IMG/VR virus record: IMGVR_UViG_2917875804_000003 | DNA: 30,850 bases | Direction: 5' to 3' (one strand) | Origin: a virus | Taxonomy: Duplodnaviria > Heunggongvirae > Uroviricota > Caudoviricetes | Shown: positions 2,753 through 28,162 of the stretch, in pieces | How positions within the stretch are numbered: position 1 is the stretch's first letter | Layout: each line of letters begins with the position of its first letter | The notes under the pieces: generated by a model | The model's database searches: none | Told to the model about the DNA's origin: nothing | Seen by the model: the letters and a program-made list of their open reading frames with translations, nothing else | Program-made: the position numbers and the translations under genes

Positions 2753-2806
2753 AATACTGCTATCAGCAAGTCCAGAACGTTTCAACTTATCATGTGAGTG
2801 TCAGCA

Positions 2807-4510
2807 TTAGGCAATAATCACCTGATATTTTTCCCGGGTCTGCCCGGCTTTCGTCCCTGTCTGGGTGAACGCGGCGGCATTGGTTGGCATCCCAACGGAG
2901 GGATGAGAATGGCTCGCACATAGCTGCGCCAGCTCTTCCAGTAAATCAATGGTGTCCAGCATCATGGTCAGGGCGTTGATACTCTCACTGCCAATATGGA
3001 CAGTTGCCCCCATGACCTGCTGACCTCCAGTGGCTACTGATTTACGCAGTGCTGCAATCTTCTCTGTCAGGCTTTCGCCAACCTCCACGACTACAGCACC
3101 CCCCACTTTAGTGGACTGCAGTCCTGTTATGTCCGTTTCTTCGTTTCCTTCAATACTGGACAGCCTGTTACCTTTCACCGCCTGGCTATAATCACCGGCG
3201 CTGACCTGCTGGATGGCTCCAGCCAGCAATATGGCGGTTCCCAGTACCGTAGTTTTATCCGTAGCTTTCACCGCGGTTTCACGGCTGACCAGTTCGCGCT
3301 GTTCCGTATCGGCTTTTACCGTTCGCACCATCGATGTTTCACTGATGGTCTGATCGGTCTGCCTTACCCAGTCTCCAGCCTGAGTCACCCTCTGGGATAC
3401 TTCTTCCCGCTGCTGCTGCAATTGCTCACCGGGTTTAACGTCCGGCAGGCTGGTACCATCCGGCAGCGTCTGCCTGATAAAGGGTTTATCAGGTCTGCCT
3501 CCCGTGAATGCAACCTCAACCAGCGTCCCTTCTGGCGGAAACTGAAACATACCTGAATCATTCCCAGCCATCGGTACTGGCAACGGCACCGCTGAATAAA
3601 CAGGTGTCTGATTGTCCGGGTTTCCGTCTGCGTCAAGAAGCTGCACGTCCACGGCGTAACGTGGTCGGAAGGGATCGGCAAAGTTACCGCTTTTTACCGG
3701 CTCTGAATACGCCACGACTCTGGCCATCTTTGGCAAATGAAGCCCAGATGCCAGTTCAGGGTAATGGCTTTCAATCTGCCTTTGTGCCGGTGTTTTCTGC
3801 AAAGGTTTACCCGTTACGCGGTTTCTCGGCATCCATGTGATCGCCATCGTGTCATTCGTCAGATGAACCTTAGTCACGCGTTCACCGTTCATCTCCACCC
3901 CTGGCCGCATAGTCTGGATCACTGGTAATGTCACAGAGTTACCGCCAGCGGCCCCCTGGCTGAACTCTGATGGGATTTCTACGGGACGACCGGCAAACAA
4001 TGACTTTTCTGCGCCACCGACGTAAAGCGAACCATCAGGAAACTGGTACCAGATGTAATCCTGGATACTGAACGCCCTTCCCAGATTGTTCAGCAACTGA
4101 TAACCAGTACCGTTATGGGTAAAATGTGGGATAGGGGTATCGCTGTACTGTGCGTCAGGCACACTGACCGTGATCCCGCTATTTTCTTCCAACCAGACCG
4201 CAATTTCACGCAAAGTCGGGTGTTGAAACGAACATGGCCACATCCTTTCAAACACACCTGCCAACTCACGAATGAACAGGCGCTGAAAACCGTTTTCAGC
4301 GGGCTGCGATCGCTCCACATACCCCGTAAACCAGCGCAAAAGCAGATCGGTATACCCCACATCCAGCCTCACCAGTTTTCCGGTGTAATCGGTTGTTGTC
4401 TCTGCGGTGATGAAGCCCCGGCCGCAGCTGTTCAGCTCCAGTACCAGGCTGGCATCCACCAGGTGAACTTCATCCGTTGAAAGGTATAGGCGTTTTACTG
4501 GTTTCATCAT
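2807..4510 (-). CDS. baseplate central spike-like protein (gpV/gp5-type OB-fold) with N-terminal extension, 567 aa
   Basis: Internal segment VDVQLLDADG...FPPEGTLVEVAFTGGRPDKPFI matches the conserved spike OB-fold signature (PxxGxxVxVxFxxGdxdxPxI). C-terminus has an SHSHP motif like the metal-binding apex of P2 gpV. Last gene of the tail operon; GC like the phage core. Confidence 0.5.
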   Translation of the reverse strand: MMKPVKRLYLSTDEVHLVDASLVLELNSCGRGFITAETTTDYTGKLVRLDVGYTDLLLRWFTGYVERSQPAENGFQRLFIRELAGVFERMWPCSFQHPTLREIAVWLEENSGITVSVPDAQYSDTPIPHFTHNGTGYQLLNNLGRAFSIQDYIWYQFPDGSLYVGGAEKSLFAGRPVEIPSEFSQGAAGGNSVTLPVIQTMRPGVEMNGERVTKVHLTNDTMAITWMPRNRVTGKPLQKTPAQRQIESHYPELASGLHLPKMARVVAYSEPVKSGNFADPFRPRYAVDVQLLDADGNPDNQTPVYSAVPLPVPMAGNDSGMFQFPPEGTLVEVAFTGGRPDKPFIRQTLPDGTSLPDVKPGEQLQQQREEVSQRVTQAGDWVRQTDQTISETSMVRTVKADTEQRELVSRETAVKATDKTTVLGTAILLAGAIQQVSAGDYSQAVKGNRLSSIEGNEETDITGLQSTKVGGAVVVEVGESLTEKIAALRKSVATGGQQVMGATVHIGSESINALTMMLDTIDLLEELAQLCASHSHPSVGMPTNAAAFTQTGTKAGQTREKYQVIIA

Positions 4511-5055
4511 TAACCCAAAGCATCATTGACGGGCTTCAGTACCTTGCGTTCAAACCACGTCAGTTTTTCTTCATCTTCTCCGGCAGACTGGCCACCGGAC
4601 TGTCCCGCACTACCGGCAGTCTGTTTTTTTGCGGTCGTCTTACCTGTTGCCCTAGCCTCTTGCTTTTCCTGCACGCTGATATGTTCCGCCAGTGTGAATG
4701 TCACCAACCAGGACATCTTCCCGTCCTGCTGGGGTGCATCCACCGTTCCGCTGAACGTTGCTTCACGAAAGTTAACAGCACGGGCAACTTCATGCACCAC
4801 GCGATATTTCTGACGATTACCACTGGCATCGGTAGTACTGGCCAGCTCAAAAATACGCTTTAGTACTTCAGGCTGTTTAAAAGGTATTTCACCGCTGATC
4901 CGCAGTTCCTTTCCCTTTGCTCCCTGCTCTGATTTTGTTGTGGCACTGGTCTGGCCGGACTGATCTTTATCCTGAAATTGCTGTGAAACAGTCACCCGCA
5001 TGTTTTTCAGCTGGATGGCCTCGCCATTAAGCGCCAGTGTCGGGATCGAAGTCAT
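4510..5055 (-). CDS. hypothetical tail/baseplate-associated protein (181 aa)
   Basis: ATG 5055 with AAGGGA RBS inside the 3' end of the upstream gene; sits between fibre assembly gene and spike; no recognisable motif. Confidence 0.4.
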   Translation of the reverse strand: MTSIPTLALNGEAIQLKNMRVTVSQQFQDKDQSGQTSATTKSEQGAKGKELRISGEIPFKQPEVLKRIFELASTTDASGNRQKYRVVHEVARAVNFREATFSGTVDAPQQDGKMSWLVTFTLAEHISVQEKQEARATGKTTAKKQTAGSAGQSGGQSAGEDEEKLTWFERKVLKPVNDALG

Positions 5056-5752
5056 GAATCATTCCCTTTATTCCATCAAGATTATCGCCAACCAGCATCA
5101 TGGCTGCGGTGTAAACGGCAGACTGCTGCGGAATGTCCTTCACCAATTCCAGTAACAAGGTGCCGGTGTCTCCGCTGGCAGTAAAAACCCATACTCTGGC
5201 ACTTTTACCTTGTAAATCATTCAGGCCGCTGGCCACATCACTGATAAGCTGGTCACGCAGCTGAGTGAACTCGCCCAGCTGTTTTTTCAGCCCTTCGATA
5301 TCAAACCCGGCACCCGCCGCCTTTTGTGCCTGGCTGATTGCCGCAGCAGATAAAGCTGCCCTGGTGGTTGGTACAGACAGTGGAATGGACGCAGGTAACG
5401 CTGCGGCGGCTTTCGCCGGGATCTGCATCTTTTCAATAGCCAGCGCTGCGGCGGATTGCACCAGCCGTTTGACCTGCGTGAATGCCGGGGCAGGGAAAAT
5501 CCCGGCCAGGTTATTCAGGCTGGTCATAAAGTTTTCCTGCGTCTGTCCAGTGACCATCATAATCACCACGTCCGCATTCCCCCCAGTTCCGGCCAGGCGT
5601 TCAGCAAGATAGCGAACGGCATTAACCGGGCTGAGATATGCCCCGTTCGCTGTCTGCTGTCCCAGCCCATAAATCCACGGATGCGCAGGGACGATCGAAC
5701 AGTTCAGCGCAGCAACAGAATCCGTGAAGGCCAGACGTGCTTCACGCCACAT
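5027..5752 (-). CDS. hypothetical tail/baseplate-associated protein (~240 aa)
   Basis: ORF 5027..5788; internal ATG at 5752 reduces overlap with the upstream gene. Ala-rich; no recognisable motif. Confidence 0.35.
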   Translation of the reverse strand: MWREARLAFTDSVAALNCSIVPAHPWIYGLGQQTANGAYLSPVNAVRYLAERLAGTGGNADVVIMMVTGQTQENFMTSLNNLAGIFPAPAFTQVKRLVQSAAALAIEKMQIPAKAAAALPASIPLSVPTTRAALSAAAISQAQKAAGAGFDIEGLKKQLGEFTQLRDQLISDVASGLNDLQGKSARVWVFTASGDTGTLLLELVKDIPQQSAVYTAAMMLVGDNLDGIKGMIHDFDPDTGA

Positions 5753-6329
5753 TTCCAAGTATCTCCGGCCATACAATTTGCGGCGCATCTTCCGGTTGAA
5801 TACGGTTCAGTAAAACGCGGTATTTTTTCCAGGCGGTAAGCAGCAGTGCTTCTTCTTCGGTCGCCATGTCTAAATCAACGGCATCCTGCAATGTGGCAAT
5901 AGCGTCATTGGCCTGTTTAAGTAGTCTTTTCTTTTCGGCGTCTGCCTCGCTGACTAATGCAATTCGCATGGCATCCGCATCATCCACCCACGTCTTACCA
6001 TTCCATTTTTGCCAGGCATTAGCCGGTGCTAACGTGGTTGTCCCTTCCGGGTAAGCGCCTGGCTCGGAGATCACCAGTTCATTACCGTTTTCTGTATCAA
6101 ACAACACCTCACCACGATGATCCTCACGAGAAACCCATTTTTGCTTCTCTGAATCATAAATTGCCACAAACCCCGCTTTTATTACCGGTGGTTTTATTGT
6201 GGTGCAGTTGGCTGGCAGTCCGGTATACGCAGGTATAAAAGCGTCACCCAAACCAATAAATTCATTCGTGTCAGAACGCAGGTTATAAACGGTAACTGTT
6301 TGATCCGTTTCACTCATTTTAAAAGTCAT
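5742..6329 (-). CDS. tail fibre assembly protein (Tfa / gpG-like chaperone)
   Basis: C-terminus ...LQDAVDLDMATEEEALLLTAWKKYRVLLNRIQPEDAPQIVWPEI is the classic Tfa signature; immediately downstream of the tail fibre gene (TAATG overlap). Confidence 0.8.
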   Translation of the reverse strand: MTFKMSETDQTVTVYNLRSDTNEFIGLGDAFIPAYTGLPANCTTIKPPVIKAGFVAIYDSEKQKWVSREDHRGEVLFDTENGNELVISEPGAYPEGTTTLAPANAWQKWNGKTWVDDADAMRIALVSEADAEKKRLLKQANDAIATLQDAVDLDMATEEEALLLTAWKKYRVLLNRIQPEDAPQIVWPEILGNVA

Positions 6330-7904
6330 TATGCGAGTCTCACTATGTAGTTAAATACGATGTTTTTAACGGTCGTTTCTTCATTGCCCGACGCGGCGAC
6401 AGTAATGGTGTGACTGTGTGCGCCTATTGCTACGGTATGAGAGTGAGCTCCAATTCCTACAGAATGGCTATGTGCGCCAATCCCTACAATATGAGCATGG
6501 TTGCCAGCCAAATCCGTATTACCAGTTGTTACGTTATCGCCACCCTGACCTCTATTGATATCTCCGTTTTGAGTGGCCTGCCCCTTAACATATGTATGAG
6601 TATGTGCACCAGTTGTATCGGTTGTTTTGGTTCCGTAATCAAATGTGCTCACAGCTCTAGTGCCGTAGTCAAAGGATGATGTTGACTTCGTCCCCAGATC
6701 GGTACTGAATGCACTAGCGGTGTGGGCATGGGATTTATTGCCATCATCTTCATAGGACAAAACTGCACGGCCATCAGGTTTTCCTTTGATCGTCTGGCGG
6801 CGCATATCAGGAAGAACACCCGATGGGTATGCAATAGCCAGTCGCTGGTAAGCCACTGGATCAAACACCTGCCCCTGCATGATTGCGTGACCCGCTGGTG
6901 GAATATCAGTCGGCCAAGGAAATGGTACTCCAACCGGCACAACATCGCTAATGCTTAAGACCGCCAGCTCACCCAGCCCAAGATTTTTTCTGGCTTCCGC
7001 CTTGTCATTGATATCGGCAAGGTTTGCATCCTTACGCAAAAAATCGCTGCTGGCCTGTTGATCGCTCAGACTGCCTTTTGGCCTTAAATCCGTGATGTTG
7101 CCATCCACATCAATGCTGGCCACCGCAAATACAAAATGCTGAATACCGTTCTGAACATAATCAGTCAGATTTTCTACAACCGTGACTTTACTCTGTACAC
7201 TCCAGACACTGCTCAGAATCCCTGTCCAGCACACATCCAGCCAGACTTTTACCGACTTTGTCGTCACTGTAATATCCTGATTCGCATCCAGTGACACACG
7301 CAGTCCAGCCACATACCCCGTGCCTTTCGTGACATAAAACTGATTGCCGGTTTTGGCTACCAGATACCCGTTACCAAAAAAACGCCGCCGCGCCATAAAT
7401 ATCTGTATTTTCCAGACGCTGGCGCTCATCAATTCCGGCCAAACGTGCAGTAAAATCAATCTGCCAGGTTTCAGCGGGCGTATTAATCCCAGTTTCTGTT
7501 TGTGCACCGTTGTACTCCATCAGAAACGAGCGGGTCAGCACGTTCCCCTGTTGCCCTTCTTTTGTTTTCAGTTTCTGCTGTGCTGGTGCATGAACAATCA
7601 TTGCCAGCGTACCGCTGGCCTTATTGAGCAGACCAATCCAGTTAAAACTGAAATCCCCCACATCTGCGCCCAGCACTACGGAATAGACCACCCTGTTTTC
7701 ATCCACCACACCGGTACGGGTAACAGCTTGCCGGTGAACAATCTGTGCTGTCGGGGGCAACCCTTCATTGCGATCAACAGGGATATCCGCGTTTAAATCC
7801 GGCACACTGGCAAAAACAAATTCGTCCAGTAGTACCGGTTCACCTGTTGCGCCCTGCTGTGCTTTCCAGTTTTCAAACGCCAGTGTGATGGCTGTCTGTG
7901 ACAT
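6329..7904 (-). CDS. tail fibre protein, reading frame broken at an A7 run (7376-7382 on + strand; T7 in the coding sense)
   Basis: ORF 7371..7904 (conserved fibre N-terminus) and ORF 6329..7507 (distal part with HxH repeats) fuse in frame (...[19 protein letters not shown]...) if the run is 6 nt. Followed by Tfa. Confidence 0.75.
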
Positions 7905-7914
7905 AAAAATCTCC

Positions 7915-8508
7915 TTACAAACTCGCGCTGAATGTTGCGCTGCGGGCTTCCGTCCCTGCTAACGTCGCCGGGTAAACCACATATTCCCCATGATCCCACC
8001 CAGCCCGGATTACCAGGTTTTCAGACGTGATCACCTCAAACTGATAACGGCGGCATGTTCGCCCGTACTGGCGGATTATCTGGATCAGCAGCTGCGTGTT
8101 GTCTGCAATTTGGCTGTCTGTAACCCGAACCAGAATCACATCCCAGTCGATATTCGGTTGCCGTTCTAACAGTTCCACATAACCGATGCCCAACCGGTCA
8201 AAGATATTGATAAACCCCTCTACTGAACCAGCATCCCGCGCATTCACGAAGGCAAAAGCCACGCGTTTGCGAAACAGGCTCAACGGTTCACCATCAAAAC
8301 GGGTAATATCCCGGTCATAAGCCAGCAGGTTCAGTAATGCCGGTGTACACGTCAGCGGATCAAACTGATTTATTGGCCAGGTAACCCAGTTGTAAACCTC
8401 AGCCCAAAAACGCTGCGCCGTTTTCAGCAATTTCCCCGGTTCGCCTTTATTCATCCAGGAAGGCAAGACCATCCCGGCCAGCTTTTCCATAAACTCATTC
8501 ATTATCAA
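7915..8508 (-). CDS. baseplate/tail protein, gpI-like (Mu gp48-like)
   Basis: 197-aa ORF between baseplate J-like gene and tail fibre, the canonical gpI position; assignment by order and size. Confidence 0.6.
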   Translation of the reverse strand: MIMNEFMEKLAGMVLPSWMNKGEPGKLLKTAQRFWAEVYNWVTWPINQFDPLTCTPALLNLLAYDRDITRFDGEPLSLFRKRVAFAFVNARDAGSVEGFINIFDRLGIGYVELLERQPNIDWDVILVRVTDSQIADNTQLLIQIIRQYGRTCRRYQFEVITSENLVIRAGWDHGEYVVYPATLAGTEARSATFSASL

Positions 8509-9679
8509 TATTCACCGTCAGTGATTTCAGACGCGGCACGCCCAGTTCACTAGTAATGTCTCCGAGCGAAAATGTCAGTGATTCCGTCTGTGCAAAGGTT
8601 TTATGAATTTCCCGCCCCAGTTGCGAAAATGAAAACCGTGAATATGGCCACGTCTTTCTGACGTCAAAATCAGCATTTTCACGAAAAGCGCAGCGGATAA
8701 TGTTTTCAACGCCATCCTTCAGGCTTTTCCTTTCCTCATCGCTGAAATTATTCAGATTCTCGACATAAACCGTAACGGCCAGATCGTGAAACGTTTCCGG
8801 AATGGGATAACACTGCATATCATCACCATGTCCGTGATGCCCCTGGGTGTTGATATAGTCATTCACTGCATCCAAGAACGGTGCCGATGTCACCCCACTA
8901 TCCAGCAATAGAAATGCGTTTGCTGTTCCAGGTCCCCTCGGTGCTTCATGCTCAAAGAAAATCCTATCGATACTCAACCCAGCAACGCTGGCGATCATTG
9001 AGCGATAAACCGCATCAGTGTGGTAATTCCCCACCAGATTGAACTGATTGCGACAACGCTCGCGCAGTTCATCATCGCTCTCCTCGTCAGCTCCCGGCAC
9101 GGTCAGCCAGTTTTCCTCACTGGCCACATGGCTGATACCACTGACCGCCACCGGCAGAATGCGGTAGTATCCAGGCGCAAGGTTATAAGCGCCCCCGGTA
9201 CCAGTGGCTTGCACCGGCAGTAATGCGCTGGCTGCACTGGAAGCGATCACCACATCTTCAGTGGTGGCCAGCTCATAAACTCGCCCGTTAATGCGTTCTG
9301 TCTGGATAACCGTCCCAGCTCTGACCGTCACAACAGCCTTTGTGTCTTCTTTGAAGAACCGAATTACCCCCTGTGCAGCGCTCGCAGGTTTTGCCGTGAC
9401 GTTCACAGCCCAGGCCAGCAGACGCAACATGCTCCCGCTGGCCGTGGCCACAAACATATTAGCCAGCACGGTCAATACCAGAACGTCTTTCAGCCACATC
9501 ACCGGAGCGGTCACAATGGCGGTGATTAATCGCCAGAACGGTGACATTCGGGATGTATTGGTGATAATTCCCTCATCCGCTGCAATCGCATTGAAGTGTT
9601 CCCACACTTCGGCTTCCGTTACCGGCATACCGCTGTCCTTCACCACTTCTTCAAAATCGACCTGCGGTTTTTCCGTCAT
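8495..9679 (-). CDS. baseplate J-like protein (P2 gpJ / Mu gp47 family)
   Basis: ~395 aa from ATG at 9679 (MTEKPQVDF...), ATGA-coupled to the upstream W-like gene; size and position fit the baseplate wedge J family. Confidence 0.7.
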   Translation of the reverse strand: MTEKPQVDFEEVVKDSGMPVTEAEVWEHFNAIAADEGIITNTSRMSPFWRLITAIVTAPVMWLKDVLVLTVLANMFVATASGSMLRLLAWAVNVTAKPASAAQGVIRFFKEDTKAVVTVRAGTVIQTERINGRVYELATTEDVVIASSAASALLPVQATGTGGAYNLAPGYYRILPVAVSGISHVASEENWLTVPGADEESDDELRERCRNQFNLVGNYHTDAVYRSMIASVAGLSIDRIFFEHEAPRGPGTANAFLLLDSGVTSAPFLDAVNDYINTQGHHGHGDDMQCYPIPETFHDLAVTVYVENLNNFSDEERKSLKDGVENIIRCAFRENADFDVRKTWPYSRFSFSQLGREIHKTFAQTESLTFSLGDITSELGVPRLKSLTVNIDNE

Positions 9680-10023
9680 AAATCCACCTGCGCAGAGATC
9701 CCACCAAAATCGTATGTACTCGCGGTTACCCACAGCCGCTTCTGACTTTCTTCACTGATTTCCACCGTACCCGGCACAATGCGTTCATCATATTCAATCA
9801 GTAATTCCATACGGGTAAAAATATCCGCTCTCATTGTCGGGCTACGTTCGGCTATTAATTCCGTAGCCAAACCACTTTCAATAATGGAATGAATAATGTC
9901 CTGCCCGATGCTTTTTCGGTTATTACATAATTCAGGTTCATTACCGGTATTCAGAACAAAATCACCGCCCTGAATCAGCAAATCAATATAAAGAACATTA
10001 CTCATGCACCAAGCTCCTGCCAT
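9676..10023 (-). CDS. baseplate protein, gpW/gp25-like
   Basis: 115-aa ORF immediately upstream of J-like gene and coupled to it; size and position match gpW (115 aa in P2). Confidence 0.5.
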   Translation of the reverse strand: MAGAWCMSNVLYIDLLIQGGDFVLNTGNEPELCNNRKSIGQDIIHSIIESGLATELIAERSPTMRADIFTRMELLIEYDERIVPGTVEISEESQKRLWVTASTYDFGGISAQVDL

Positions 10024-11968
10024 TCCATAAGCTGGAGTGGAGAAAATGCTTCTTTGGTATGGAAATGCACTTCACCAATTTTCCGGCTGTTATCGATTAC
10101 AGATGTTGTGTTGCTGCTGATTGTTTTACTGATACCACCATTATCCACACCTTTTAAATCGCCCCCCGTAGACAGCGTATTACCAGTTAATGGCTGTAAG
10201 GTTTCACTGGCCAGAGAAATATCCACGCCGGGAATTTCATTCAGTTTCTGAACAATCCAGTTCCACGACTTAAGAAATCCCTCTTTGATTGAGTTCCAGA
10301 CAATATCAAACAGCGACATAATACCGGTGGCCATTCCCTTTAATGCCTCAGATGGCGAAAATCCTGTCAGCATAGAAATGAAGCTGTTCCATCCATCACT
10401 GACATATTGCCAGGCTATAACAAAGATCCCCGCTAGCCATTTCACTACGGCAGCGCATACCTGAAAGGCTTCGGTATTCATCACCGATGCTTTTATCGTG
10501 TTCCAGTGCTTAACCAGCAGATAACAACCAGCAACAAGCAGCGCAATGGCACCAATCACAAGCAGGATTGGCCAGCTCATCAGATTGATACCAATTCCGG
10601 TCATCATTGCGGCCATGCGTACCGCCAGTAACGCGCCGCGTAAAAACTTCAGCGTGGTATTCCAGGCGATTACCGCCATTTGCGCCAGCCAGACAGTCGC
10701 CGTGTAGATTTTCGTAACCGCCGTTAACGCCCCCCAGATCCCACGTAATCCCATCATGATGAATCTGGATACCCCCATCACGATATTGCAACCGCACCCA
10801 CGGCGGCAAAGCTCAGTAGTGCCACCGACGCATAACCAATCACACGGGCAATGTTAGGAAACAACTGCATCCAACGAGCAAAGGTCTGCCCCATATCAGC
10901 CAGGCGATTCAGAACCGGATACAGCACCGGGATCAGCGTCAGTCCGATCACGGTCTGAATGGCTTTCAGGATTTGTACAAAGCGATCCCACGGCTTAACC
11001 ATTTTTTGTGCCATTTCCTGGGTACGCTTCAGGCCGTCCGCGCCGCCCAGTTCGGTGATGTTCCGCTGAAGTAACGCGACATTGCCGTAAAGATGTTTAA
11101 CCACTGCCGAACTGTCACCAAAGGCTGCATCCAGCTCCGCCTGGGCTTTCAGGTTCCCTTCAAGGCTTTTGCCATATTTGCCCTGCAACTTGATCAGCAT
11201 TTCAGGCATGGACAGCATTTTGCCGGTGGAGTCAGTAAAGGACAGCCCCAGCTTTTTAGCGCCATCAATCGCGCCGGTCATAAATCCTTCATAGGCGCTG
11301 CTGGCTTCCGTTCCCAGCGTCCGCTGAAGTTGCCCCAGCACGGCCAGCTGTTCATCCAGCCCCACACCGTAGTTAGTCCCGACGCCGCGCGCACCTTCCA
11401 TCAAATCCTTGATAGTGGCCATTTCTGTGCCAAAGGTTTTGCGCATATAAACCATCTTGCCTGCCAACTGCTCGGCAAATTCCACCTTGCCCAGTCTGGC
11501 GGCATCGGCGGAAAAGTTACCGAACATCTGCCCCATAAATTCCGCCGTGTCCGCCGCTGTGGACTTGAGCGCAAACGCCAGGGTATTGGCGACTTTCGTC
11601 ACCTTCGGCAGTTCATTACCCGTCAGTCCGGCAATGGAAGCGTTAATATTTTCCGTGGATTTAACAAACTCCACCGCACTGGCACCATAGGTTGTACTAA
11701 AGCGCAGGGCATCACGCTGAACTGTCTTAAGTGCTGAATCATCAATACCTTTTGCGGCAGCATCATTCAGCGCGTCATACATTTCAATTGCCGGTGATAA
11801 AGCACTTTTGATCTCCATCCCGATGCCTGCCAGCGCCAGAACGCCACCACCGATCTGCATAAAGGCTGCTTTTGATTTTTCCGCAAAGCCGGTGACGTTA
11901 CCTTGCACCTGTTTTAACGGGCGGGATAATTTATCAATCAGGCTTAATGTAAAATCTAATTGTTTCAT
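10002..11968 (-). CDS. tail tape measure protein, encoded as two overlapping ORFs (10778..11968 and 10002..10781) with a frame change at a GTGATG junction
   Basis: N-terminal ORF is long, helical and Ala/Gly-rich; C-terminal ORF is a hydrophobic multi-TM segment typical of tape-measure C-termini. Sits directly after the chaperone frameshift extension. Confidence 0.7.
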
Positions 11969-12416
11969 TCATTGCCTTTAAATGCTTTTGCCACACCATT
12001 GGCCACGGCTATTCCCGTATATTCCCAGTGACGATTGTCCAGCCAGATAGCGGCGGCGATATCATCAACGGAATCCTGACCATGTGGTAAATAATGACGG
12101 CGTAGAATTAAATATTGTTCGAGTCCATTCATTTCAATTTCATGGACTCGCTTTGTCAGTTTTTTACTTCAATTTCTAGTTCAGGCGCATAAATATCATT
12201 TACTTTGCCAACCAGTTGAAGTGCAGCACCCGGACGTTTTAATACTTCACAAAGTGAGGCTTTACTTTCAATCGCAACAATTCGTGTCAGATAGTTATGC
12301 GCAGGAGCAACCTTATTGTCCATTGCCATTTCATTAATAAATTTATTGTAGGCAGTCTGGTTTGGTTCAAAAATAATTTCAACACCACAAACACACAGTT
12401 TAATTTGTTCCATCAA
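11965..12416 (-). CDS. tail assembly chaperone with programmed -1 frameshift extension (E/E'- or G/GT-like)
   Basis: 86-aa ORF 12156..12416 ends ...GAA GTA AAA AAC TGA. The -1 frame after the slippery A-AAA-AAC stays open for ~64 codons and stops at a TGA overlapping the tape-measure ATG (11966-11968). Confidence 0.6.
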
Positions 12417-12697
12417 TAACTCTCTCTTAAAATAATTTCATCCACTAACTGATTATGACGTGCAGCACACTGACCATATAACTCAAGATAAATCGTCAGT
12501 AATTCCGCTGAGTCTTTTCCTGTCGCACCATTCAGGCGCGGCAACTGCGTGGCACATTTAGTTTTCAGATTTTCCTGATAACGCACGTTCGGTACCGGTT
12601 GCGGCACGGTTGTACATGCTGACAAACTCATCAGACAGGCAACGACTGGTAAAAACAGGCTTAAGCACTTCAGTGCGTATCTCTCGCGGTGCCACAT
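12413..12697 (-). CDS. o-spanin-like outer-membrane lipoprotein (Rz1-like)
   Basis: Signal peptide with lipobox LSAC (...LFLPVVACLMSLSACTT...); overlaps the 3' end of the i-spanin candidate in another frame. Exact start uncertain. Confidence 0.55.
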   Translation of the reverse strand: MWHRERYALKCLSLFLPVVACLMSLSACTTVPQPVPNVRYQENLKTKCATQLPRLNGATGKDSAELLTIYLELYGQCAARHNQLVDEIILRESY

Positions 12698-12897
12698 TTT
12701 TTTAACGCCTCCAGTTTATCTTCCAGCGCTCTGGCCGAATCACTGGCAATACCCTGCATTGCTTTTCGCGATTCAGTACCGGCCACCTGCGCCGCTGTAT
12801 TGATTGCCAGCTCTAAGCTATCACGCCGCCAGTCAGCGGTTAGCCAGCCCCAGACAAACGCCAGCGCCACCACAACCAACCACTGCCCGCTGCTCAT
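12670..12897 (-). CDS. i-spanin-like protein (Rz-like)
   Basis: 75 aa, N-terminal TM segment (WLVVVALAFVWGWL) then charged helical region; directly downstream of the endolysin. Confidence 0.5.
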   Translation of the reverse strand: MSSGQWLVVVALAFVWGWLTADWRRDSLELAINTAAQVAGTESRKAMQGIASDSARALEDKLEALKKCGTARDTH

Positions 12898-13238
12898 CAG
12901 CGCACCCCGTTATGTTCCAGACTGAAATGATTACCATCAGGTCTGGATTTGAAGCGTCCGCCCCAGGAACCACCCAGTGATTCCCAGTATTCCCCCAGTG
13001 GCAGATAATCTTCTGTACGGGTTTTGTACTGACCGTTCACGAACAGATTGAAATCCACCGCCAGCCGCTGGGTGTGCAGGCTGTTAGAAATGCCGCTGCC
13101 TTTCTTCGCATTCAGCGCGGCCTGTTCTGGTGTACGGTAAGCCTCACCGAACGTCAGTCTGTAGCCATGTTCTTCTGCCCAGTGGATCAGACTGGCCACC
13201 ATGACTGTGAATAATTGCTGTTTTTCACTCAGGGTCAT
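12897..13238 (-). CDS. endolysin, M15-family peptidoglycan peptidase
   Basis: ATG at 13238 (MTLSEKQQ...) with GGGAG RBS; ...NSLHTQRLAVDFNLFVNGQYK...HFSLEHNGVR resembles the metallopeptidase M15 core (H...D...H). Confidence 0.7.
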   Translation of the reverse strand: MTLSEKQQLFTVMVASLIHWAEEHGYRLTFGEAYRTPEQAALNAKKGSGISNSLHTQRLAVDFNLFVNGQYKTRTEDYLPLGEYWESLGGSWGGRFKSRPDGNHFSLEHNGVR

Positions 13239-13527
13239 TTGTCTTGCTCCCGTTCTGCTTTCCCGCTGCACGTCTGCGCAGCCACACTTCCACCGCCTGA
13301 TAACCGGCAATCCCCAGCGCCGCCCCCAGCCCCTGAATGGCCAGCGGGCTGGCATCCGGGATCTGAATTAGTACCGCCCCGGCCACCACTGAAACCAGAC
13401 TGCCCAGGATCACGCGACCGGCAAACAGGCGCGGCGTGATTGGGTCATTACTGGTCAGCACATTGCCGATGGCAATCAGTGCGCCAATGATCAGCAGTGA
13501 ATAAAGGCTCTTTTCATGTTCCTGCAT
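13225..13527 (-). CDS. holin-like small membrane protein
   Basis: 100 aa with two or three hydrophobic TM segments and a charged C-terminus; immediately upstream of the endolysin. Confidence 0.55.
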   Translation of the reverse strand: MQEHEKSLYSLLIIGALIAIGNVLTSNDPITPRLFAGRVILGSLVSVVAGAVLIQIPDASPLAIQGLGAALGIAGYQAVEVWLRRRAAGKQNGSKTNDPE

Positions 13528-13536
13528 CCCTGCCCC

Positions 13537-13992
13537 TTATCCGATCAGGTTTTCTGTGGCTTCCGCTTCCAGATACGGCACACCGTTGATGTTGACGAAT
13601 TTCGGACTGGTCACGAAATATTTGATTTTGTGCGTGGTCACACCGCCACCTTTCGGATCAATATCCAGCAGGTTGCTGACCTGCAATTTATTGCCGAACG
13701 TCTCCACCTTCATTTCTTCGCTACTGGCTTTGGCATAGAAAAGAAAATCAAGTGGTGGAAGCCCACGCCATGAACCCGCTGCACGGGCTTTGGCTGTCAG
13801 CACCTGAAGTGTTTTTGAACTGACTTCAATTTCCCCCTCAGCGGCAACATCGCCATCCACATACCCATCAGGGACGCCACGCGTCTGGGCGGCAGCGCTG
13901 TTATCCGTAATATCGAGCGTGATTTTCTCGATATGGATCAGATCGCCGTCCATATAGGTGTCAAACGACATACCCGAAATACGTTTGGTCAT
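13537..13992 (-). CDS. tail tube protein (putative)
   Basis: 151-aa ORF coupled (4-nt overlap) to the upstream sheath candidate; size and position fit a myovirus tube protein. Confidence 0.55.
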   Translation of the reverse strand: MTKRISGMSFDTYMDGDLIHIEKITLDITDNSAAAQTRGVPDGYVDGDVAAEGEIEVSSKTLQVLTAKARAAGSWRGLPPLDFLFYAKASSEEMKVETFGNKLQVSNLLDIDPKGGGVTTHKIKYFVTSPKFVNINGVPYLEAEATENLIG

Positions 13993-15116
13993 GCTATAGC
14001 CTCCAGACTGGCATCCAGTAACAGGCTGATGGTGATTTGCAGTGGCACTTCCCAGGTACGTACCACAATGTAAATATCAACTGCCTTTTTGTTCTTCCAG
14101 ACAATGGATACATCACCATCCTGCGGCGGCTTCACTTCTCCGGGAAATGACACCCCATTAATGCTGGCCGCAGTAGACATTTCGCGCAGTGGACTGGCGA
14201 ACAGTGTCTGATGTGCGGCGATACTTCCTGGCGTGCTATTCAGCGAACGATCAGCGATTTTACTGATAGCCAGCAAACGAACACGGCGGGCAGCTTTATC
14301 CGCGACGCGCAAAGTTTCAATCGACTGATAATCGCCGCCCTCAACGTCCAACGTGCGGCCATCTGACCAGTAAAAACCGTCATAATCCGGGTACCACATT
14401 GGCACACTGAAACGCTGTGCTTCCAGCGCCTGAAGTGTGGCCAACTCAAGAACTTCTCCGGTACCATCAACCGGCATTTCGTCACTGCCCAGATTCATCA
14501 GCGCACCGGTTTTAACCCTCGCCGGACTATCTGCAATAGTCACCATACAGCTACACAGACGACCAGCCAGCACACCCGGTTCATTTCCCCACAGCCGGGG
14601 AACCAACTGAACCGACTTTTCTGCAATCCCATCCTGAAGAGTGGCCAAGCGAACCAAGTAATCCGCCTGGGCTTCTTCGTCCTGCACTCCCTGTGCGGCC
14701 AGAATGAACCACACCCAGCGGCCATACTTTGAAATCAGGGTGGTTCGTAACGTCACTGCCTGATTTACTTGCGCTTTAGCAGTGACATCGTCAGACAGCA
14801 CCACGCCTTCCACAGAGCACACCACCTGCGCGGCTAAAACCGCTTTCACCCAGGCGTCCGCCTCCGCGTCAGCTGGCAGGACGTGAATGAACCCCCACCA
14901 GTTCTGGCCAGCGTTCGCCAGCGCAGCCAGAACATCATTTTTCAGCGGGCTGGCTTCCTCGCCCAGCAGTGAATCAAAATCACTCTGGGCATTCACCGCC
15001 AGCGTTTTCCCCACATTTTTGGTACCCGTGCCGATAAACAGCAGTGTGCGTTCCACCTCATTGGTTTCACCCATCAGCTGATTTACCTGGTTTACGGTCA
15101 CAATTGGCCAGGTCAT
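13989..15116 (-). CDS. tail sheath protein (putative)
   Basis: 375-aa ORF between the virion-morphogenesis gene and the tube gene, coupled to both; called on position and size only. Confidence 0.5.
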   Translation of the reverse strand: MTWPIVTVNQVNQLMGETNEVERTLLFIGTGTKNVGKTLAVNAQSDFDSLLGEEASPLKNDVLAALANAGQNWWGFIHVLPADAEADAWVKAVLAAQVVCSVEGVVLSDDVTAKAQVNQAVTLRTTLISKYGRWVWFILAAQGVQDEEAQADYLVRLATLQDGIAEKSVQLVPRLWGNEPGVLAGRLCSCMVTIADSPARVKTGALMNLGSDEMPVDGTGEVLELATLQALEAQRFSVPMWYPDYDGFYWSDGRTLDVEGGDYQSIETLRVADKAARRVRLLAISKIADRSLNSTPGSIAAHQTLFASPLREMSTAASINGVSFPGEVKPPQDGDVSIVWKNKKAVDIYIVVRTWEVPLQITISLLLDASLEAIA

Positions 15117-15817
15117 GCTTTCCCCTTAATATCCTGCGCCTTAACGTCCCAGCCAAAGCCGATGGCCTGAAGCTGACGCGCCAGCGCCTTGTCAAATTCA
15201 TCATCATTCATGCCCAGAAACACACGAGCAGGAAGATCCACTGTCCAGCTGGTTTTCACGGCTTTACTACTGAGTTTTCGAATCAGCAGCCCCGCCTGGC
15301 TGTATGGCATCGTTTTGGTGATTTCGCCCAGTGTGGGCTTTTTCCATCTCTTACCGGTTTTCACCCGGTACCCCAGCGCCCGTAATTTTTTGGCCTGGGC
15401 AGGCGTCGCCATTTTCCCGGCCTCTGCCTTCCGTGGCTGATTACTGCGGCTGACCTTTACGCGCATTCCGTTTTGTTGCGCGTACCCCACCGTTCCGGCT
15501 GGTACCGGCGCTTCCCCGTTCCGGTATCCACCACCCTGTAAATAGATCCGCACAGCCTGAATTTCTGGCATTTCACGGATATGCAGCAGCTTTGGCAGGT
15601 TGCGCAGCATCTTCCCTTTGCGTTTTGTCTTACGTCCCGGCCACTTGCCATCCGGGGATTCCTGATTGCGCACATGCCGTTTTGCCGCAGCAATCACGCC
15701 ATATTTGGCCAGACGCCAGATCAGACGCTGCCGTTTTCTCGGCGGCAGCTCCATGCTGGCCAGTGCCTTGCGCAATTCGGCCAGCTGTTTTTTATTCAGC
15801 TCGCCACCAGCAATCAT
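15113..15817 (-). CDS. virion morphogenesis / tail completion protein (P2 gpS / Mu gpG-like)
   Basis: 234-aa basic protein with ...ESPDGKWPGRKTKRKGKMLRNL..., resembling the Phage_tail_S virion morphogenesis family; sits between head and tail genes. Confidence 0.5.
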   Translation of the reverse strand: MIAGGELNKKQLAELRKALASMELPPRKRQRLIWRLAKYGVIAAAKRHVRNQESPDGKWPGRKTKRKGKMLRNLPKLLHIREMPEIQAVRIYLQGGGYRNGEAPVPAGTVGYAQQNGMRVKVSRSNQPRKAEAGKMATPAQAKKLRALGYRVKTGKRWKKPTLGEITKTMPYSQAGLLIRKLSSKAVKTSWTVDLPARVFLGMNDDEFDKALARQLQAIGFGWDVKAQDIKGKA

Positions 15818-16320
15818 TCGCTATCCCCCACCGGCGCACCGGCCTCATCCACGCTGTAAATACTGGCGGTCAGTGCCGTCCAGATTTCAGGCTCAACCAG
15901 TGACCAGCGCTCACCCCGCCACGGAATAGCCCCGTTTTCGTCCTGCCTGATCACCAGTTCTTCTACCATCGGAACAGTCAGCACCACAGTGGCCACTTCC
16001 TCATCCTCCACCGACACATCCCAGTCAGGTTCAGCTTCACTCAGCCCCACTTCATCCACTAGTTCCCTGTCAGCATCATCCAGCCATGCAGCCAGTAAGG
16101 ACATAAGCAACTGCGGCGGGCAAAGGCGATACGGGAAACGCTCCCAGCTCAGAACCGCGTCATATCGGATAACCGCCTGGCGATATTGTCCCAGCCCGTA
16201 ATCCTTCGCCGCAGGGATGAACTTCATCTCATCCAGCACACTGTCAAATGACTGCATCGCACGGGGCGGGACGTTATCTTTAAAAAATGTGGTCAGGCTT
16301 TGGATCTGCGTCTGGCTCAT
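15814..16320 (-). CDS. putative tail completion / head-tail joining protein
   Basis: 168-aa acidic protein, ATGA-coupled between the head-completion gene and the morphogenesis gene; positional assignment only. Confidence 0.35.
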   Translation of the reverse strand: MSQTQIQSLTTFFKDNVPPRAMQSFDSVLDEMKFIPAAKDYGLGQYRQAVIRYDAVLSWERFPYRLCPPQLLMSLLAAWLDDADRELVDEVGLSEAEPDWDVSVEDEEVATVVLTVPMVEELVIRQDENGAIPWRGERWSLVEPEIWTALTASIYSVDEAGAPVGDSE

Positions 16321-16820
16321 ACTTTTTTCACCGTTGCCCGTTTCAGCCCTTTCATACGGCGGATCACCACCGATGCTTCAGCCAGTAACCCCGCTCGGGT
16401 TTCCATACTTTCCTGTCCCGGATGAGTATCGCGCCGCCCGATAGTGGCGAACTCCCCCAGCAGATCCGCTTTTGCCCTGGCAAAAACGGCCTTCATATAC
16501 TGGGCGCACAGGCTGTTCAGTCCGCCCATTTTTACACCTGGTACCTCTGCCGCCAGCGTGTAGCCTTTCGCTATCCAACTGGACTCCACGTTTTCCAGCT
16601 CCGCATTCACCTCCGCCACCGCTGCAAGCAACGCCTGGCTGATGGTGTCAGCGTCAATATCTGGCGGTAGTGACCGCTGCGCTTGAAAATCCTTCAGATT
16701 CAGATCTGGCCAGAATCCGTTATTGGTCAGCGGTTCATCCTGATAATCCAGCGGCTTTCCGCTAAACATAAATCCCCCGAAAAAGGCGGACTGGCCGGTT
16801 TCCACGGCGCAGTTACACAC
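16317..16820 (-). CDS. L: head completion/stabilisation protein (gpL-like)
   Basis: About 150-167 aa directly downstream of the small terminase, the P2 gene L position; true start may be an internal Met (MFSGKPLDY...). Confidence 0.55.
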   Translation of the reverse strand: MCNCAVETGQSAFFGGFMFSGKPLDYQDEPLTNNGFWPDLNLKDFQAQRSLPPDIDADTISQALLAAVAEVNAELENVESSWIAKGYTLAAEVPGVKMGGLNSLCAQYMKAVFARAKADLLGEFATIGRRDTHPGQESMETRAGLLAEASVVIRRMKGLKRATVKKV

Positions 16821-19459: not shown

Positions 19460-19621
19460 ATCCCCCCCTGTTCCACTCCCTGACGCTGCAAATCAATTAT
19501 TGCCAAATAAAACCACCACCGCATTACGCTTTATTCTGAACAGTTCGGTTATAACGCTTTACCGAACAGACACGAATTAACACCACCGTTTTTTCATCAC
19601 AGCCACGGCATAATTATCCGC
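19460..19621. promoter_or_regulatory. divergent late promoter region between scaffold O and terminase P
   Basis: ~160-bp intergenic region between divergent operons; contains an imperfect dyad (GTTCGGT ... ACCGAAC, ~19531-19556) that could be an Ogr-type activator site. Not verified. Confidence 0.3.
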
Positions 19622-21397: not shown

Positions 21398-22455
21398 GTA
21401 AAAAGAAACGCTTTGTTAAGCGCGACCAGCGCGGCGACAAATCAAAAAAGATGAGCATTATCACATTCGGCAAACCTGAACCGGTTCTGACTACCGGCAC
21501 AGATTACCGTGATATCTGGTACGACAATGCCGCCGATCACTTCACCCAGCCGATTGACCGGCTGGCACTCGCGCAACTGATTAATCTGAACGGTCAGCAC
21601 GGCGGCATCATTCACGCCCGCAAAAACATGATTGTTTCAGATTACCAGGGGGGCGGACTTATTCACGACCAGCTGGAAGCGGCAGCGTATGACTATATAA
21701 CCTTTGGGGATATTGCGATTGCCAAAATTCGTAACGGCTGGGGAGACGTTATCGCACTTGAACCCTTACCCGGTCTGTATATTCGCCGCCGCAAAGTCAG
21801 AGATAACGCCCTGGATAAGCCCGGTGACTACGTAGTGTTACAGGAAGGGGAACCGCAGATATGGCCAGAAGAAGATATTATCTTTATCAAAATTTATGAC
21901 CCACAACAGCATATCTACGGACTTCCGGACTACATCGGCGGTGTGCATTCCGCGTTACTTAACAGTGAAGCGGTCATTTTCCGACGCCGCTACTACCACA
22001 ACGGTGCGCACACAGGCGGAATTCTTTATACCCGCGATCCCAGCATGACGGACGAAATGGAGGAAGAAATTGAACAGCAGCTGCGTGACAGCAAAGGGAT
22101 CGGGAACTTCTCCACCATCCTTGTAAACATTCCCGGCGGAGACGGCGACGCCATCAAGTTCATTGAAATGGGTGATATTTCTGCTAAGGATGAATTTGCC
22201 AACATCAAGAACATCAGCGCACAGGACATTCTGAACGCGCACCGTTTCCCTGCCGGCCTCGCCGGTATTGTCCCGCAGAACACTGCCGGACTGGGGGATG
22301 TTGAAAAGGCTGAACGCATTTATAAGAAAAGCGAAATTGCCCCCATCCAGCGCCGTTTCATGCTGGCCGTTAACAACGATCCCGAAATACCGGAAAGGTT
22401 GCACCTAAACTTTGATTTAAGTTACATAGAATCAATAGATAAAGGTGCGGCATGA
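21394..22455 (+). CDS. Q: portal vertex protein, gpQ-like
   Basis: 353 aa, AAGGAAAGAGG RBS, coupled to the terminase gene; size and position match P2 gpQ. Confidence 0.85.
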   Translation: MSKKKRFVKRDQRGDKSKKMSIITFGKPEPVLTTGTDYRDIWYDNAADHFTQPIDRLALAQLINLNGQHGGIIHARKNMIVSDYQGGGLIHDQLEAAAYDYITFGDIAIAKIRNGWGDVIALEPLPGLYIRRRKVRDNALDKPGDYVVLQEGEPQIWPEEDIIFIKIYDPQQHIYGLPDYIGGVHSALLNSEAVIFRRRYYHNGAHTGGILYTRDPSMTDEMEEEIEQQLRDSKGIGNFSTILVNIPGGDGDAIKFIEMGDISAKDEFANIKNISAQDILNAHRFPAGLAGIVPQNTAGLGDVEKAERIYKKSEIAPIQRRFMLAVNNDPEIPERLHLNFDLSYIESIDKGAA

Positions 22456-28148: not shown

Positions 28149-28162
28149 TAAGGAAAATTATA

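What the first reader, a model, noticed from the sequence alone, without database searches (positions are those of the whole stretch)
10002..15116. Mosaic tail module with a lysis cassette embedded between tube and chaperone genes
Head, packaging, replication and immunity genes follow the P2/186 plan, but the tail does not: the order is sheath, tube, holin, endolysin, spanins, chaperone, tape measure, then W/J/I-like baseplate genes, fibre, Tfa, with spike-related genes at the very end. P2 instead places lysis genes between head and tail-completion genes and uses V-W-J-I-H-G / FI-FII-E-T-U-D. This indicates modular recombination between a 186/P2-type backbone and a different myovirus tail lineage.
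Basis: partly seen in the sequence, partly recalled or inferred. Interest (0 to 1): 0.4.

Follow-up and report, generated by a model that had tools for sequence, protein, structure and literature searches.

The report
Standard HP1-type phage tail-and-lysis operon
The gene order is real, but it is the normal, long-described layout of the HP1-like branch of the P2 phage family (closest relative: Escherichia phage ESSI2_ev129), not a new hybrid, so the finding is ordinary.

Summary
Observation confirmed; interpretation only partly right; nothing new.

**What is there.** On the minus strand the order is sheath, tube, holin, M15 endolysin, overlapping spanins, tail chaperone with a −1 frameshift extension, tape measure, baseplate, fibre, Tfa and a VgrG-like spike. 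HMM matches are strong, and fold searches confirm the sheath and tube.

**Why it is ordinary.** The window is about 93–96% identical over its structural genes to Escherichia phage ESSI2_ev129 (Peduoviridae, Quadragintavirus). Exactly this order occurs in HP1 (sequenced 1996), K139, ESSI-2, SI7, phiO18P, phi3 and vB_YenM_324.

**Why it is not a P2/186 backbone with a foreign tail.**
- The head and packaging proteins are also closer to HP1 than to P2: portal 49 vs 33%, TerL 51 vs 42%, capsid 34 vs 27%.
- Identity to ev129 runs unbroken across the head–tail boundary.
- An ancient tail-module replacement at the root of the HP1 subgroup is already a published idea.

**Real mosaicism lies elsewhere.**
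- The lysis slot holds a P2 gpY-type holin (54% identity) instead of the HP1-type holin.
- RepA and CII are closer to 186.
- The immunity/integrase module differs from ev129.

**Also noted.** This copy carries single-base frameshifts in the tape measure, i-spanin and fibre genes.

The parts
13989..15116 (-). Contractile tail sheath, HP1 orf23 type (DUF2586), 375 aa
   Evidence: Pfam DUF2586 E = 6e-134. PHROG 907 'tail sheath' E = 2e-161. 51% identical to HP1 orf23. No similarity to P2 FI. AF2 model gives Foldseek hits to sheaths only.
13537..13992 (-). Tail tube, HP1 orf24 type, 151 aa
   Evidence: Pfam Phage_HP1_Orf24 E = 8e-64. 59% identical to HP1 orf24. No similarity to P2 FII. AF2 model pLDDT 77 hits tail-tube/Hcp folds.
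13225..13527 (-). Holin of the P2 gpY family, 100 aa
   Evidence: PF04550 E = 6e-39. 54% identical to P2 Y. No similarity to the HP1 holin. The family occurs otherwise almost only in P2-subgroup phages.
12897..13238 (-). Endolysin, M15 metallopeptidase, 113 aa (the mechanical ORF extends to 13355)
   Evidence: Peptidase_M15_4 E = 2e-10. PHROG endolysin families. Annotated as 113 aa in relatives. Unrelated to HP1 Lys, which is a Phage_lysozyme.
12670..12897 (-). i-spanin (Rz-like), truncated to 75 aa by a 1-nt insertion in an A-run at about 12703; intact relatives have 112 aa
   Evidence: PHROG 1152 'Rz-like spanin'. Indel against ev129. Deleting one A restores 112 aa. Intact in L014, L015 and the E. 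coli prophage.
12413..12697 (-). o-spanin (Rz1/LysC-like lipoprotein), overlapping the i-spanin gene in the +1 frame
   Evidence: Pfam LysC E = 1e-6. Lipobox L-S-A-C read directly from the translation. The same frame is open in ev129.
12156..12416 (-). Tail assembly chaperone (TAC), 85-86 aa
   Evidence: Pfam Phage_TAC_10 E = 5e-34.
11965..12171 (-). −1 frameshift site A_AAA_AAC (about 12159-12165) and the chaperone extension ORF (DUF6890). The fused product would be 150 aa.
   Evidence: Sequence read and fused translation. DUF6890 / PHROG 7050. The same heptamer directly before the stop, and a similar extension, occur in ev129, an E. coli prophage and HP1.
10002..11968 (-). Tape measure gene, split into 396-aa and 259-aa ORFs by a 1-nt deletion at about 10788
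   Evidence: PhageMin_Tail E = 6e-23. 1967 nt here against 1968 nt in ev129. Intact at 655 aa in contigs that carry the identical sheath and in E. coli.
15113..16820 (-). Upstream connector genes: head completion L (16317-16820), tail completion R (15814-16320), Neck1/S-like (15113-15817)
   Evidence: Phage_GPL E = 1e-38 and P2_Phage_GpR E = 2e-22. PHROG 26 'tail completion or Neck1'.
2807..10023 (-). Downstream baseplate and fibre genes: DUF2590 (9676-10023), J-like (8495-9733), I-like (7915-8508), fibre (6329-7904, frameshifted at about 7382), Tfa (5742-6329), orf33-like (5027-5788), HP1_ORF34 (4510-5055), VgrG/gp5-like hub-spike (2807-4510)
   Evidence: Pfam. PHROGs. J-like protein 50% identical to HP1 orf29 and unrelated to P2 J by BLASTP. 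T4 gp5 beta-helix match E = 1e-6. Fibre indel.

Best explanation
The region is the middle of the single long late-gene cluster of an ESSI2-like temperate myovirus. The phage belongs to Peduoviridae, at or near the genus Quadragintavirus, in the HP1 subgroup.

**Layout.** In this subgroup the order is fixed: scaffold, capsid, small terminase, L, R, S-like, sheath, tube, [lysis cassette], chaperone, tape measure, DUF2590, J, I, fibre, Tfa, orf33, orf34, hub-spike.

**How the lysis cassette sits in it.** Nine bases separate the tube gene from the holin gene, and the o-spanin stop overlaps the chaperone start. There is no excess of promoter-like or terminator-like sites. The cassette is therefore most likely co-transcribed with the tail genes from the late promoter region at 19460-19621. 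An Ogr/Delta-type zinc-finger activator encoded at 22452-22775 probably drives this (inferred).

**Predicted roles.**
- The holin permeabilises the inner membrane.
- The M15 peptidase cuts peptidoglycan.
- The Rz/Rz1-type spanin pair disrupts the outer membrane.
- The chaperone is made in two forms by a −1 ribosomal slip at A_AAA_AAC, as for P2 E/E' and lambda G/GT.

**Origin.** The arrangement is inherited from the HP1-type lineage as a whole. It was not created by a recent head/tail recombination in this phage. Only the contents of the lysis slot, and the early and immunity genes, show exchange with P2/186-type enterobacterial phages.
For: **Shown**
- Nucleotide identity to ESSI2_ev129 is 93-96% across 2809-25073, with the same gene order.
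- The same order is annotated in HP1, K139, ESSI-2, SI7, phiO18P, phi3 and vB_YenM_324.
- Structural proteins are closer to HP1 than to P2:
  - sheath 51%, tube 59% and J 50% to HP1, none to P2;
  - portal 49 vs 33%, TerL 51 vs 42%, capsid 34 vs 27%.
- All 76 phage records that carry this sheath family come from the host genera of known HP1-group phages. The 40 listed are 28-38 kb genomes or fragments.
- Folds of sheath and tube are confirmed.
- The slippery heptamer and the extension ORF are conserved from HP1 to this window.
- Promoter-like and terminator-like sites inside the cluster are no more frequent than in shuffled sequence.
- K139's record annotates one promoter (P17) and one terminator (T39) for the whole late cluster.

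**From the literature**
- HP1-like viruses were defined with P2-like capsid genes but tail genes unlike P2 (PMC2771037).
- ESSI2-like coliphages have been described (PMC6969025).
Against: - Co-transcription of the lysis genes with the tail genes is inferred from spacing only. No transcript data exist.
- A P2-type Ogr site (TGT-N12-ACA) was not found in the divergent promoter region.
- The holin (54% to P2 Y), RepA (46% to 186 A vs 39% to HP1 Rep) and CII (44% to 186 CII) are closer to P2/186 than to HP1. The genome is therefore not purely HP1-like.
- Three frameshifts (tape measure, i-spanin, fibre) mean this copy may not make functional tails or a functional spanin, if the frameshifts are real.
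Confidence: 0.94

Rival explanations
1. One reading: a 186/P2-type backbone recently recombined with a tail module from a different myovirus lineage. The head/tail boundary in this window would then be a recombination junction.
For: - Tail proteins lack detectable similarity to P2 FI, FII and J.
- L, R and the capsid genes fall in P2-named Pfam families.
- RepA and CII are closest to 186.
Against: - Head and packaging proteins are closer to HP1 than to P2.
- The arrangement is shared by eight genera.
- Protein identity to ev129 shows no step between head genes (95-99%) and the adjoining sheath and tube genes (97-100%).
- Any tail replacement happened at the root of the HP1 subgroup and is already published (PMC10612066).
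Confidence: 0.03
2. The lysis cassette is a recently inserted, self-contained mobile module (a moron with its own promoter and terminator) that happened to land between the tube and chaperone genes of this particular phage.
For: - The contents of the slot differ between relatives:
  - HP1 and K139 have an HP1-type holin plus a lysozyme;
  - phiO18P has a lambda S-type holin, and its record annotates a methyltransferase gene in the slot;
  - the enterobacterial members have a P2 Y-type holin plus an M15 peptidase.
- Identity to ev129 is somewhat lower for the endolysin and spanins (85-90%) than for the sheath, tube and holin (97-100%).
Against: - The position of the slot is conserved in every HP1-group genome inspected.
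- Only 9 nt separate tube and holin, and the o-spanin overlaps the chaperone start.
- There is no excess of promoter-like or terminator-like sites.
- The evidence therefore points to exchange of contents at a fixed slot, not to a new insertion.
Confidence: 0.04
3. The element is a decaying, defective prophage. Its tape measure, i-spanin and fibre genes are genuinely inactivated, so the tail and lysis module no longer works.
For: - There are single-base indels relative to ev129 in all three genes.
- The tape measure and i-spanin indels are also present in the Logan assembly of run SRR6148339.
- Contigs from other samples that encode the identical sheath have an intact 655-aa tape measure and a 112-aa i-spanin.
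Against: - The Logan contig and the window differ only by eight single-base indels and no substitutions, all at short runs of one base. This suggests indel-prone reads, and probably the same read set, so the two assemblies are not independent.
- Two of the three frameshifts lie in runs of seven identical bases.
- All other genes are intact.
Confidence: 0.3

Closest known systems
Escherichia phage ESSI2_ev129 / ev040 / ev015 (Peduoviridae, Quadragintavirus; Mathieu et al. 2020, PMC6969025)
   Same: - 93-96% nucleotide identity over the structural and replication genes.
- Identical gene order from portal to hub-spike.
- The same holin (100% aa) and tube (100% aa).
   Different: - The immunity and integration module is different: Cox-like 37%, CI 42%, Int 61% aa, with no nucleotide match beyond about 27200.
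- The moron region differs.
- The fibre C-terminus is only 80% identical.
- This copy has three single-base frameshifts.
Haemophilus phage HP1 (Hpunavirus; Esposito et al. 1996) and Vibrio phage K139 (Longwoodvirus)
   Same: - The late gene order is the same gene for gene, including the lysis cassette between tube and chaperone and orf33-34-35 at the end.
- Sheath 51%, tube 59%, J 50%, TerL 51% and portal 49% identity to HP1.
- The same A_AAA_AAC slip site lies at the end of the chaperone gene.
   Different: - The lysis cassette has different contents. HP1 and K139 use an HP1-family holin (PF16080) and a lysozyme (PF00959). Here it is a P2 Y-type holin and an M15 peptidase.
- K139 has an extra zinc-finger gene after the tube.
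- RepA here is closer to 186.
Coliphages P2 and 186 (Peduovirus, Eganvirus)
   Same: - Divergent Q-P / O-N-M-L head module, and L and R families.
- Ogr/Delta activator.
- GPA replication protein (46% to 186 A) and CII (44%).
- gpY holin (54%).
- An E/E'-like chaperone frameshift (annotation).
   Different: - P2 places the lysis genes between L/X and R/S. It splits the tail genes into V-W-J-I-H-G and FI-FII-E-T-U-D operons.
- Its sheath, tube and J show no detectable sequence similarity to those here.

Membership tests
HP1 subgroup of Peduoviridae ('HP1-like viruses') | P2-type head and packaging module: portal and large terminase divergent from scaffold, capsid, small terminase and L | tested here: met
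   ORF layout. Pfam GPO, Phage_term_smal and Phage_GPL. Phage_portal, terminase and Phage_cap_P2 on the near-identical contig, which has no substitutions over 1489-21972. Same layout as HP1 and K139.
HP1 subgroup of Peduoviridae ('HP1-like viruses') | Tail proteins of the HP1 type rather than the P2 type (the criterion of Table 2 in PMC10612066) | tested here: met
   DUF2586 sheath, HP1_Orf24 tube and HP1_ORF34. 50-59% identity to HP1 and none to P2.
HP1 subgroup of Peduoviridae ('HP1-like viruses') | Lysis cassette between the tube and chaperone genes, and baseplate order DUF2590-J-I-fibre-Tfa-orf33-orf34-orf35 | tested here: met
   Window order compared with seven reference genomes.
HP1 subgroup of Peduoviridae ('HP1-like viruses') | cos site next to attP rather than next to the portal gene (PMC2771037) | not tested
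   No cos or att site was identified. No flanking direct repeat and no tRNA gene was found in the window.
Genus Quadragintavirus (ICTV nucleotide criterion, from general knowledge: about 70% identity over the genome for a genus, 95% for a species) | At least 70% nucleotide similarity (identity times coverage) to ESSI2_ev129 | tested here: inconclusive
   About 23.8 kb of the 30.85-kb window aligns at 84-96%. That gives roughly 72% by my arithmetic. This is at the genus threshold and clearly below species level. The exact ends of the phage within the window are unknown.
P2/186-type tail module (Peduovirus, Eganvirus) | FI/FII-type sheath and tube, V-W-J-I-H-G and FI-FII-E-T-U-D operons, and lysis genes between L/X and R | tested here: not met
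   No similarity to P2 FI, FII or J. The gene order differs from P2 and 186.
Contractile sheath and tail-tube/Hcp fold superfamilies | Predicted structure matches solved sheath and tube structures | tested here: met
   Sheath model: top hits are 3hxl, phage 812, Lin1278, Milano, AFP and PVC, with E from 1e-7 to 1e-4. Tube model: diffocin tube 6gkx at 3e-4, then monocin, phage 812, A-1(L) and Hcp. The models are of moderate confidence (pLDDT 66 and 77) and TM-scores are 0.4-0.5.
Canonical Gram-negative lysis cassette (holin, endolysin, two-component spanin) | Holin family match, peptidoglycan hydrolase, i-spanin with an N-terminal membrane helix, o-spanin lipoprotein with a lipobox | tested here: met
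   PF04550, Peptidase_M15_4 and LysC. PHROG Rz-like spanin. The hydrophobic stretch WLVVVALAFVWGWL and the lipobox LSAC are read from the translations. The i-spanin is truncated in this copy.
Tail assembly chaperone with programmed −1 frameshift (lambda G/GT, P2 E/E') | Slippery heptamer near the 3' end of the chaperone gene, and an open −1 frame that reaches the tape measure gene | tested here: met
   A_AAA_AAC lies directly before the stop codon, and the −1 frame is open for 64 more codons. Both are conserved in ev129, an E. coli prophage and HP1. Actual frameshifting cannot be tested with these tools.

The most novel reading that the evidence does not exclude
The fixed slot between the tube and chaperone genes acts as an exchange point. 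Enterobacterial HP1-group phages (ESSI2-like, SI7, vB_YenM_324) would have replaced the HP1-type holin and lysozyme there with a P2 gpY-type holin and an M15 peptidase taken from co-resident P2-subgroup prophages. Together with the 186-like RepA and CII, this would mean ongoing module traffic between the two Peduoviridae subgroups within Enterobacteriaceae.
Probability: 0.4. Interest if true: 0.2.

Novelty: already known. Interest (0 to 1): 0.08.

Why it matters
It matters little beyond correct annotation.
- The window should be labelled an ESSI2-like, HP1-subgroup Peduoviridae prophage rather than a P2/186 hybrid.
- The "DUF2586" and "HP1_Orf24 / DUF2597" genes should be named sheath and tube. 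Some public records call the sheath homologue a "topoisomerase".
- The case shows that P2-named head families do not imply a P2-type tail.
- The only mildly useful leads are the content swapping at the conserved lysis slot and the private frameshifts, which bear on whether this prophage is still inducible.

Tried and rejected
- **Profile–profile comparison** of HP1-type against P2-type sheath and tube alignments found no relation (probability 0.1-0.2%). The alignments were shallow (8 and 3 sequences), so this does not contradict the published HHpred links. I used structure prediction instead.
- **Sequence searches of the PDB** with the sheath and tube, singly and as profiles, gave nothing meaningful.
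- **Ogr-type late promoter.** I searched for TGT-N12-ACA. Seven matches is no more than chance, and none lies in the divergent region 19460-19621.
- **Promoter and terminator scan** of the late cluster gave counts no higher than in shuffled sequence.
- **Prophage ends.** I looked for att repeats and tRNA genes and found none, so the ends and the host are undetermined. The tube is 99% identical to a Citrobacter sedlakii protein. The best E. coli match is only 94.7%.
- **Papers not held.** The original HP1 and K139 genome papers are not in the library. Their gene orders were taken from the GenBank and RefSeq annotation instead.
- **Technical problem.** Most fetched loci did not appear in the script sandbox. 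Comparisons with HP1, P2, 186 and K139 were therefore done pairwise with the comparison tool rather than as one table.

Full report
**1. What is in the window**

The ORF map shows one long minus-strand gene cluster from about 19459 down to 2807. It lies opposite a plus-strand pair at 19622-22455.

Pfam and PHROG scans, plus the precomputed families on a near-identical contig, identify the following genes in transcription order:
- **Head and connector:** scaffold GPO, P2-family capsid, small terminase, head completion L (16317-16820), tail completion R (15814-16320), Neck1/S-like (15113-15817).
- **Tail shaft:** sheath DUF2586 (13989-15116, E = 6e-134) and tube Phage_HP1_Orf24 (13537-13992, E = 8e-64).
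- **Lysis:** holin PF04550 (13225-13527), M15 endolysin (12897-13238), i-spanin (12670-12897) and o-spanin (12413-12697).
- **Tail assembly:** chaperone Phage_TAC_10 (12156-12416) and tape measure (10002-11968).
- **Baseplate and fibre:** DUF2590, Baseplate_J, a weak Tail_P2_I match, fibre, Tfa, an orf33-like gene and HP1_ORF34.
- **Spike:** a 567-aa protein with a T4 gp5-type beta-helix (E = 1e-6) and weak VgrG similarity.

**2. Are the sheath and tube really tail proteins?**

Neither protein has sequence-detectable relatives in the PDB. I collected homologues, aligned them and predicted structures.
- The sheath model has pLDDT 66. Its top 27 Foldseek PDB matches are all contractile sheath proteins of phages, tailocins and contractile injection systems, with E from 1e-7 to 3e-4.
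- The tube model has pLDDT 77. It matches the diffocin tube (3e-4), monocin, phage 812, A-1(L) and Hcp.

TM-scores are modest (0.4-0.5), but the hit lists are consistent. Evseev et al. 2022 (PMC9230969) had already modelled the 375-aa ESSI-2 sheath, which is 80% identical to this one, as a one-domain sheath.

**3. What the element is**

The finding's 5.1 kb is 93.5% identical over 100% of its length to Escherichia phage ESSI2_ev129. That phage is classified in Peduoviridae, genus Quadragintavirus.

Across the whole window, 2809-25073 aligns to ev129 at 93-96%. Every late protein is 90-100% identical except the fibre C-terminus, which is 80%. The ev129 RefSeq annotation gives exactly the same order, including holin, endolysin and spanin between the tube ('tail protein') and the chaperone.

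**4. Is this order standard?**

Yes. The same order, gene for gene, is annotated in:
- Cronobacter phage ESSI-2, Seongnamvirus;
- Haemophilus phage HP1, Hpunavirus;
- Vibrio phage K139, Longwoodvirus;
- Salmonella phage SI7, Irrigatiovirus;
- Aeromonas phage phiO18P, Bielevirus;
- Pseudomonas phage phi3, Phitrevirus;
- Yersinia phage vB_YenM_324, Tresduoquattuorvirus.

A tblastn search with the sheath finds 76 phage records. All come from the host genera of known HP1-group phages, and the 40 listed are 28-38 kb genomes or fragments.

**5. Is it a P2/186 backbone with a foreign tail?**

| Protein | Identity to HP1 | Identity to P2 or 186 |
|---|---|---|
| Sheath | 51% | none (P2 FI) |
| Tube | 59% | none (P2 FII) |
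| J-like | 50% | none (P2 J) |
| Portal | 49% | 33% (P2) |
| TerL | 51% | 42% (P2) |
| Capsid | 34% | 27% (P2) |

The head proteins are also nearer to HP1, so head and tail belong to the same lineage. There is also no step in identity to ev129 at the head/tail boundary. A recent recombination at that boundary is not supported.

The deep-time version of the idea is already in the literature.
- Lavigne et al. 2009 (PMC2771037) defined the 'HP1-like viruses'. [quoted passage not shown]
- PMC10612066 (2023) divides Peduoviridae into HP1 and P2 subgroups by their tail proteins, with Seongnamvirus in the HP1 group.
[quoted passage not shown] It also remarks that lysis genes usually sit in a module inserted among the tail genes.

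**6. Where the real mosaicism is**

(a) *The lysis slot.* The holin here is 54% identical to P2 gpY and unrelated to the HP1 holin. Its family is otherwise found almost only in P2-subgroup phages. Pfam scans of the same slot in relatives show:
- HP1 and K139: HP1-family holin plus lysozyme;
- phiO18P: lambda S-type holin;
- SI7, vB_YenM_324 and this window: Y-type holin plus M15 peptidase (the endolysin was scanned in SI7 and the window; vB_YenM_324's is annotated as a similar-sized endolysin).

The position is conserved, but the contents are exchanged.

(b) *Early genes.* RepA is 46% identical to 186 A and 39% to HP1 Rep. CII is 44% identical to 186 CII.

(c) *Immunity and integration.* The Cox-like protein is 37%, CI 42% and Int 61% identical to ev129. 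Nucleotide similarity ends at about 27200. This is a heteroimmune variant with a different integrase.

**7. How the module most likely works**

Gene spacing is tight. Nine nucleotides separate tube and holin, and the o-spanin stop overlaps the chaperone start. Promoter-like and terminator-like sites are not enriched. K139's record annotates a single promoter and terminator for its whole late cluster.

I infer, without direct evidence, that the lysis genes are co-transcribed with the tail genes from the divergent late promoter region. An Ogr/Delta zinc-finger protein (22452-22775, E = 1e-19) would control this.

The chaperone gene ends ...GTA AAA AAC TGA. A −1 slip on A_AAA_AAC opens into the DUF6890 ORF and gives a 150-aa product that ends where the tape measure gene starts. 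The identical heptamer at the identical position, with a similar extension, is present in ev129, an E. coli prophage and HP1. This is good comparative support for a programmed frameshift.

**8. Defects in this copy**

Relative to ev129 there are three single-base indels:
- a deletion at about 10788 that splits the tape measure into 396-aa and 259-aa ORFs;
- an extra base in a homopolymer run at about 12703 that truncates the i-spanin to 75 aa; removing it restores 112 aa;
- an extra base in a homopolymer run at about 7382 that splits the fibre gene.

Contigs from other samples that encode the identical sheath have an intact tape measure and i-spanin. So does an E. coli prophage.

A Logan assembly of run SRR6148339 matches the window with no substitutions but eight single-base indels at short runs of one base. 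The reads were probably indel-prone. I cannot say whether the three frameshifts are real decay or sequencing error.

**9. Verdict**

The interpretation mistakes a family-level trait, described since the HP1 genome of 1996 and formalised in 2009 and 2023, for a novel hybrid. Interest is low.

Noticed in passing
window 10778-10790 (minus strand, within the tape measure gene): A 1-nt deletion relative to ESSI2_ev129 splits the tape measure gene (1967 nt against 1968 nt) into 396-aa and 259-aa ORFs that overlap by GTGA. It is not in a homopolymer run. It is shared with the Logan contig of SRR6148339 but absent from other samples that carry the identical sheath.
   Followed up: partly
window about 12703 and about 7382: Single extra bases in runs of seven identical bases truncate the i-spanin (75 aa against 112 aa) and split the tail fibre gene (177 + 392 aa against 524-525 aa). 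The fibre indel is absent from the Logan contig of the same run, which in turn has five other gene-breaking indels. This suggests sequencing errors in homopolymer runs.
   Followed up: partly
window 27200-30850: The immunity and integration module (Cox/Apl-like 27227-27508, CI 27743-28360, integrase 28738-29826) is only 37-61% identical in protein to ESSI2_ev129. It has no close nucleotide relative among phage records; the best is 70% to a Salmonella phage fragment. This is the real recent module swap in this genome.
   Followed up: partly
window 1-2800: A low-GC (36-43%) accessory region lies beyond the hub-spike gene. It holds a hexapeptide-repeat acetyltransferase (2288-2752, 79% nucleotide identity to the 'serine acetyltransferase' region of ESSI2_ev040). 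It also holds a DUF6338 gene split into two ORFs (658-1104 and 1007-1336), possibly another frameshift. No att repeat or tRNA gene was found, so the prophage ends are undefined.
   Followed up: partly
L011 (NC_070917.1, Yersinia phage vB_YenM_324) 4501-5640; protein P0059 (Kluyvera georgiana): Homologues of this sheath (65% and 82% identical) are annotated 'topoisomerase' or 'topoisomerase IA' in public records. This looks like a propagated misannotation of the DUF2586 sheath family.
   Followed up: no
L009 (Aeromonas phage phiO18P) 6651-7727: In phiO18P the lysis slot between tube and chaperone also holds a DNA methyltransferase gene between the holin and the endolysin. K139, phiO18P and phi3 carry a DksA-like zinc-finger gene right after the tube. 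The slot accepts varied cargo.
   Followed up: no
(distribution): Related prophages occur in only 39 of 5426 complete E. coli genomes, at 94.7% identity or less. The tube is 99% identical to a Citrobacter sedlakii protein. The window therefore probably comes from a non-E. coli enterobacterium, in line with the host-crossing suggestion for ESSI2 phages in PMC6969025.
   Followed up: no
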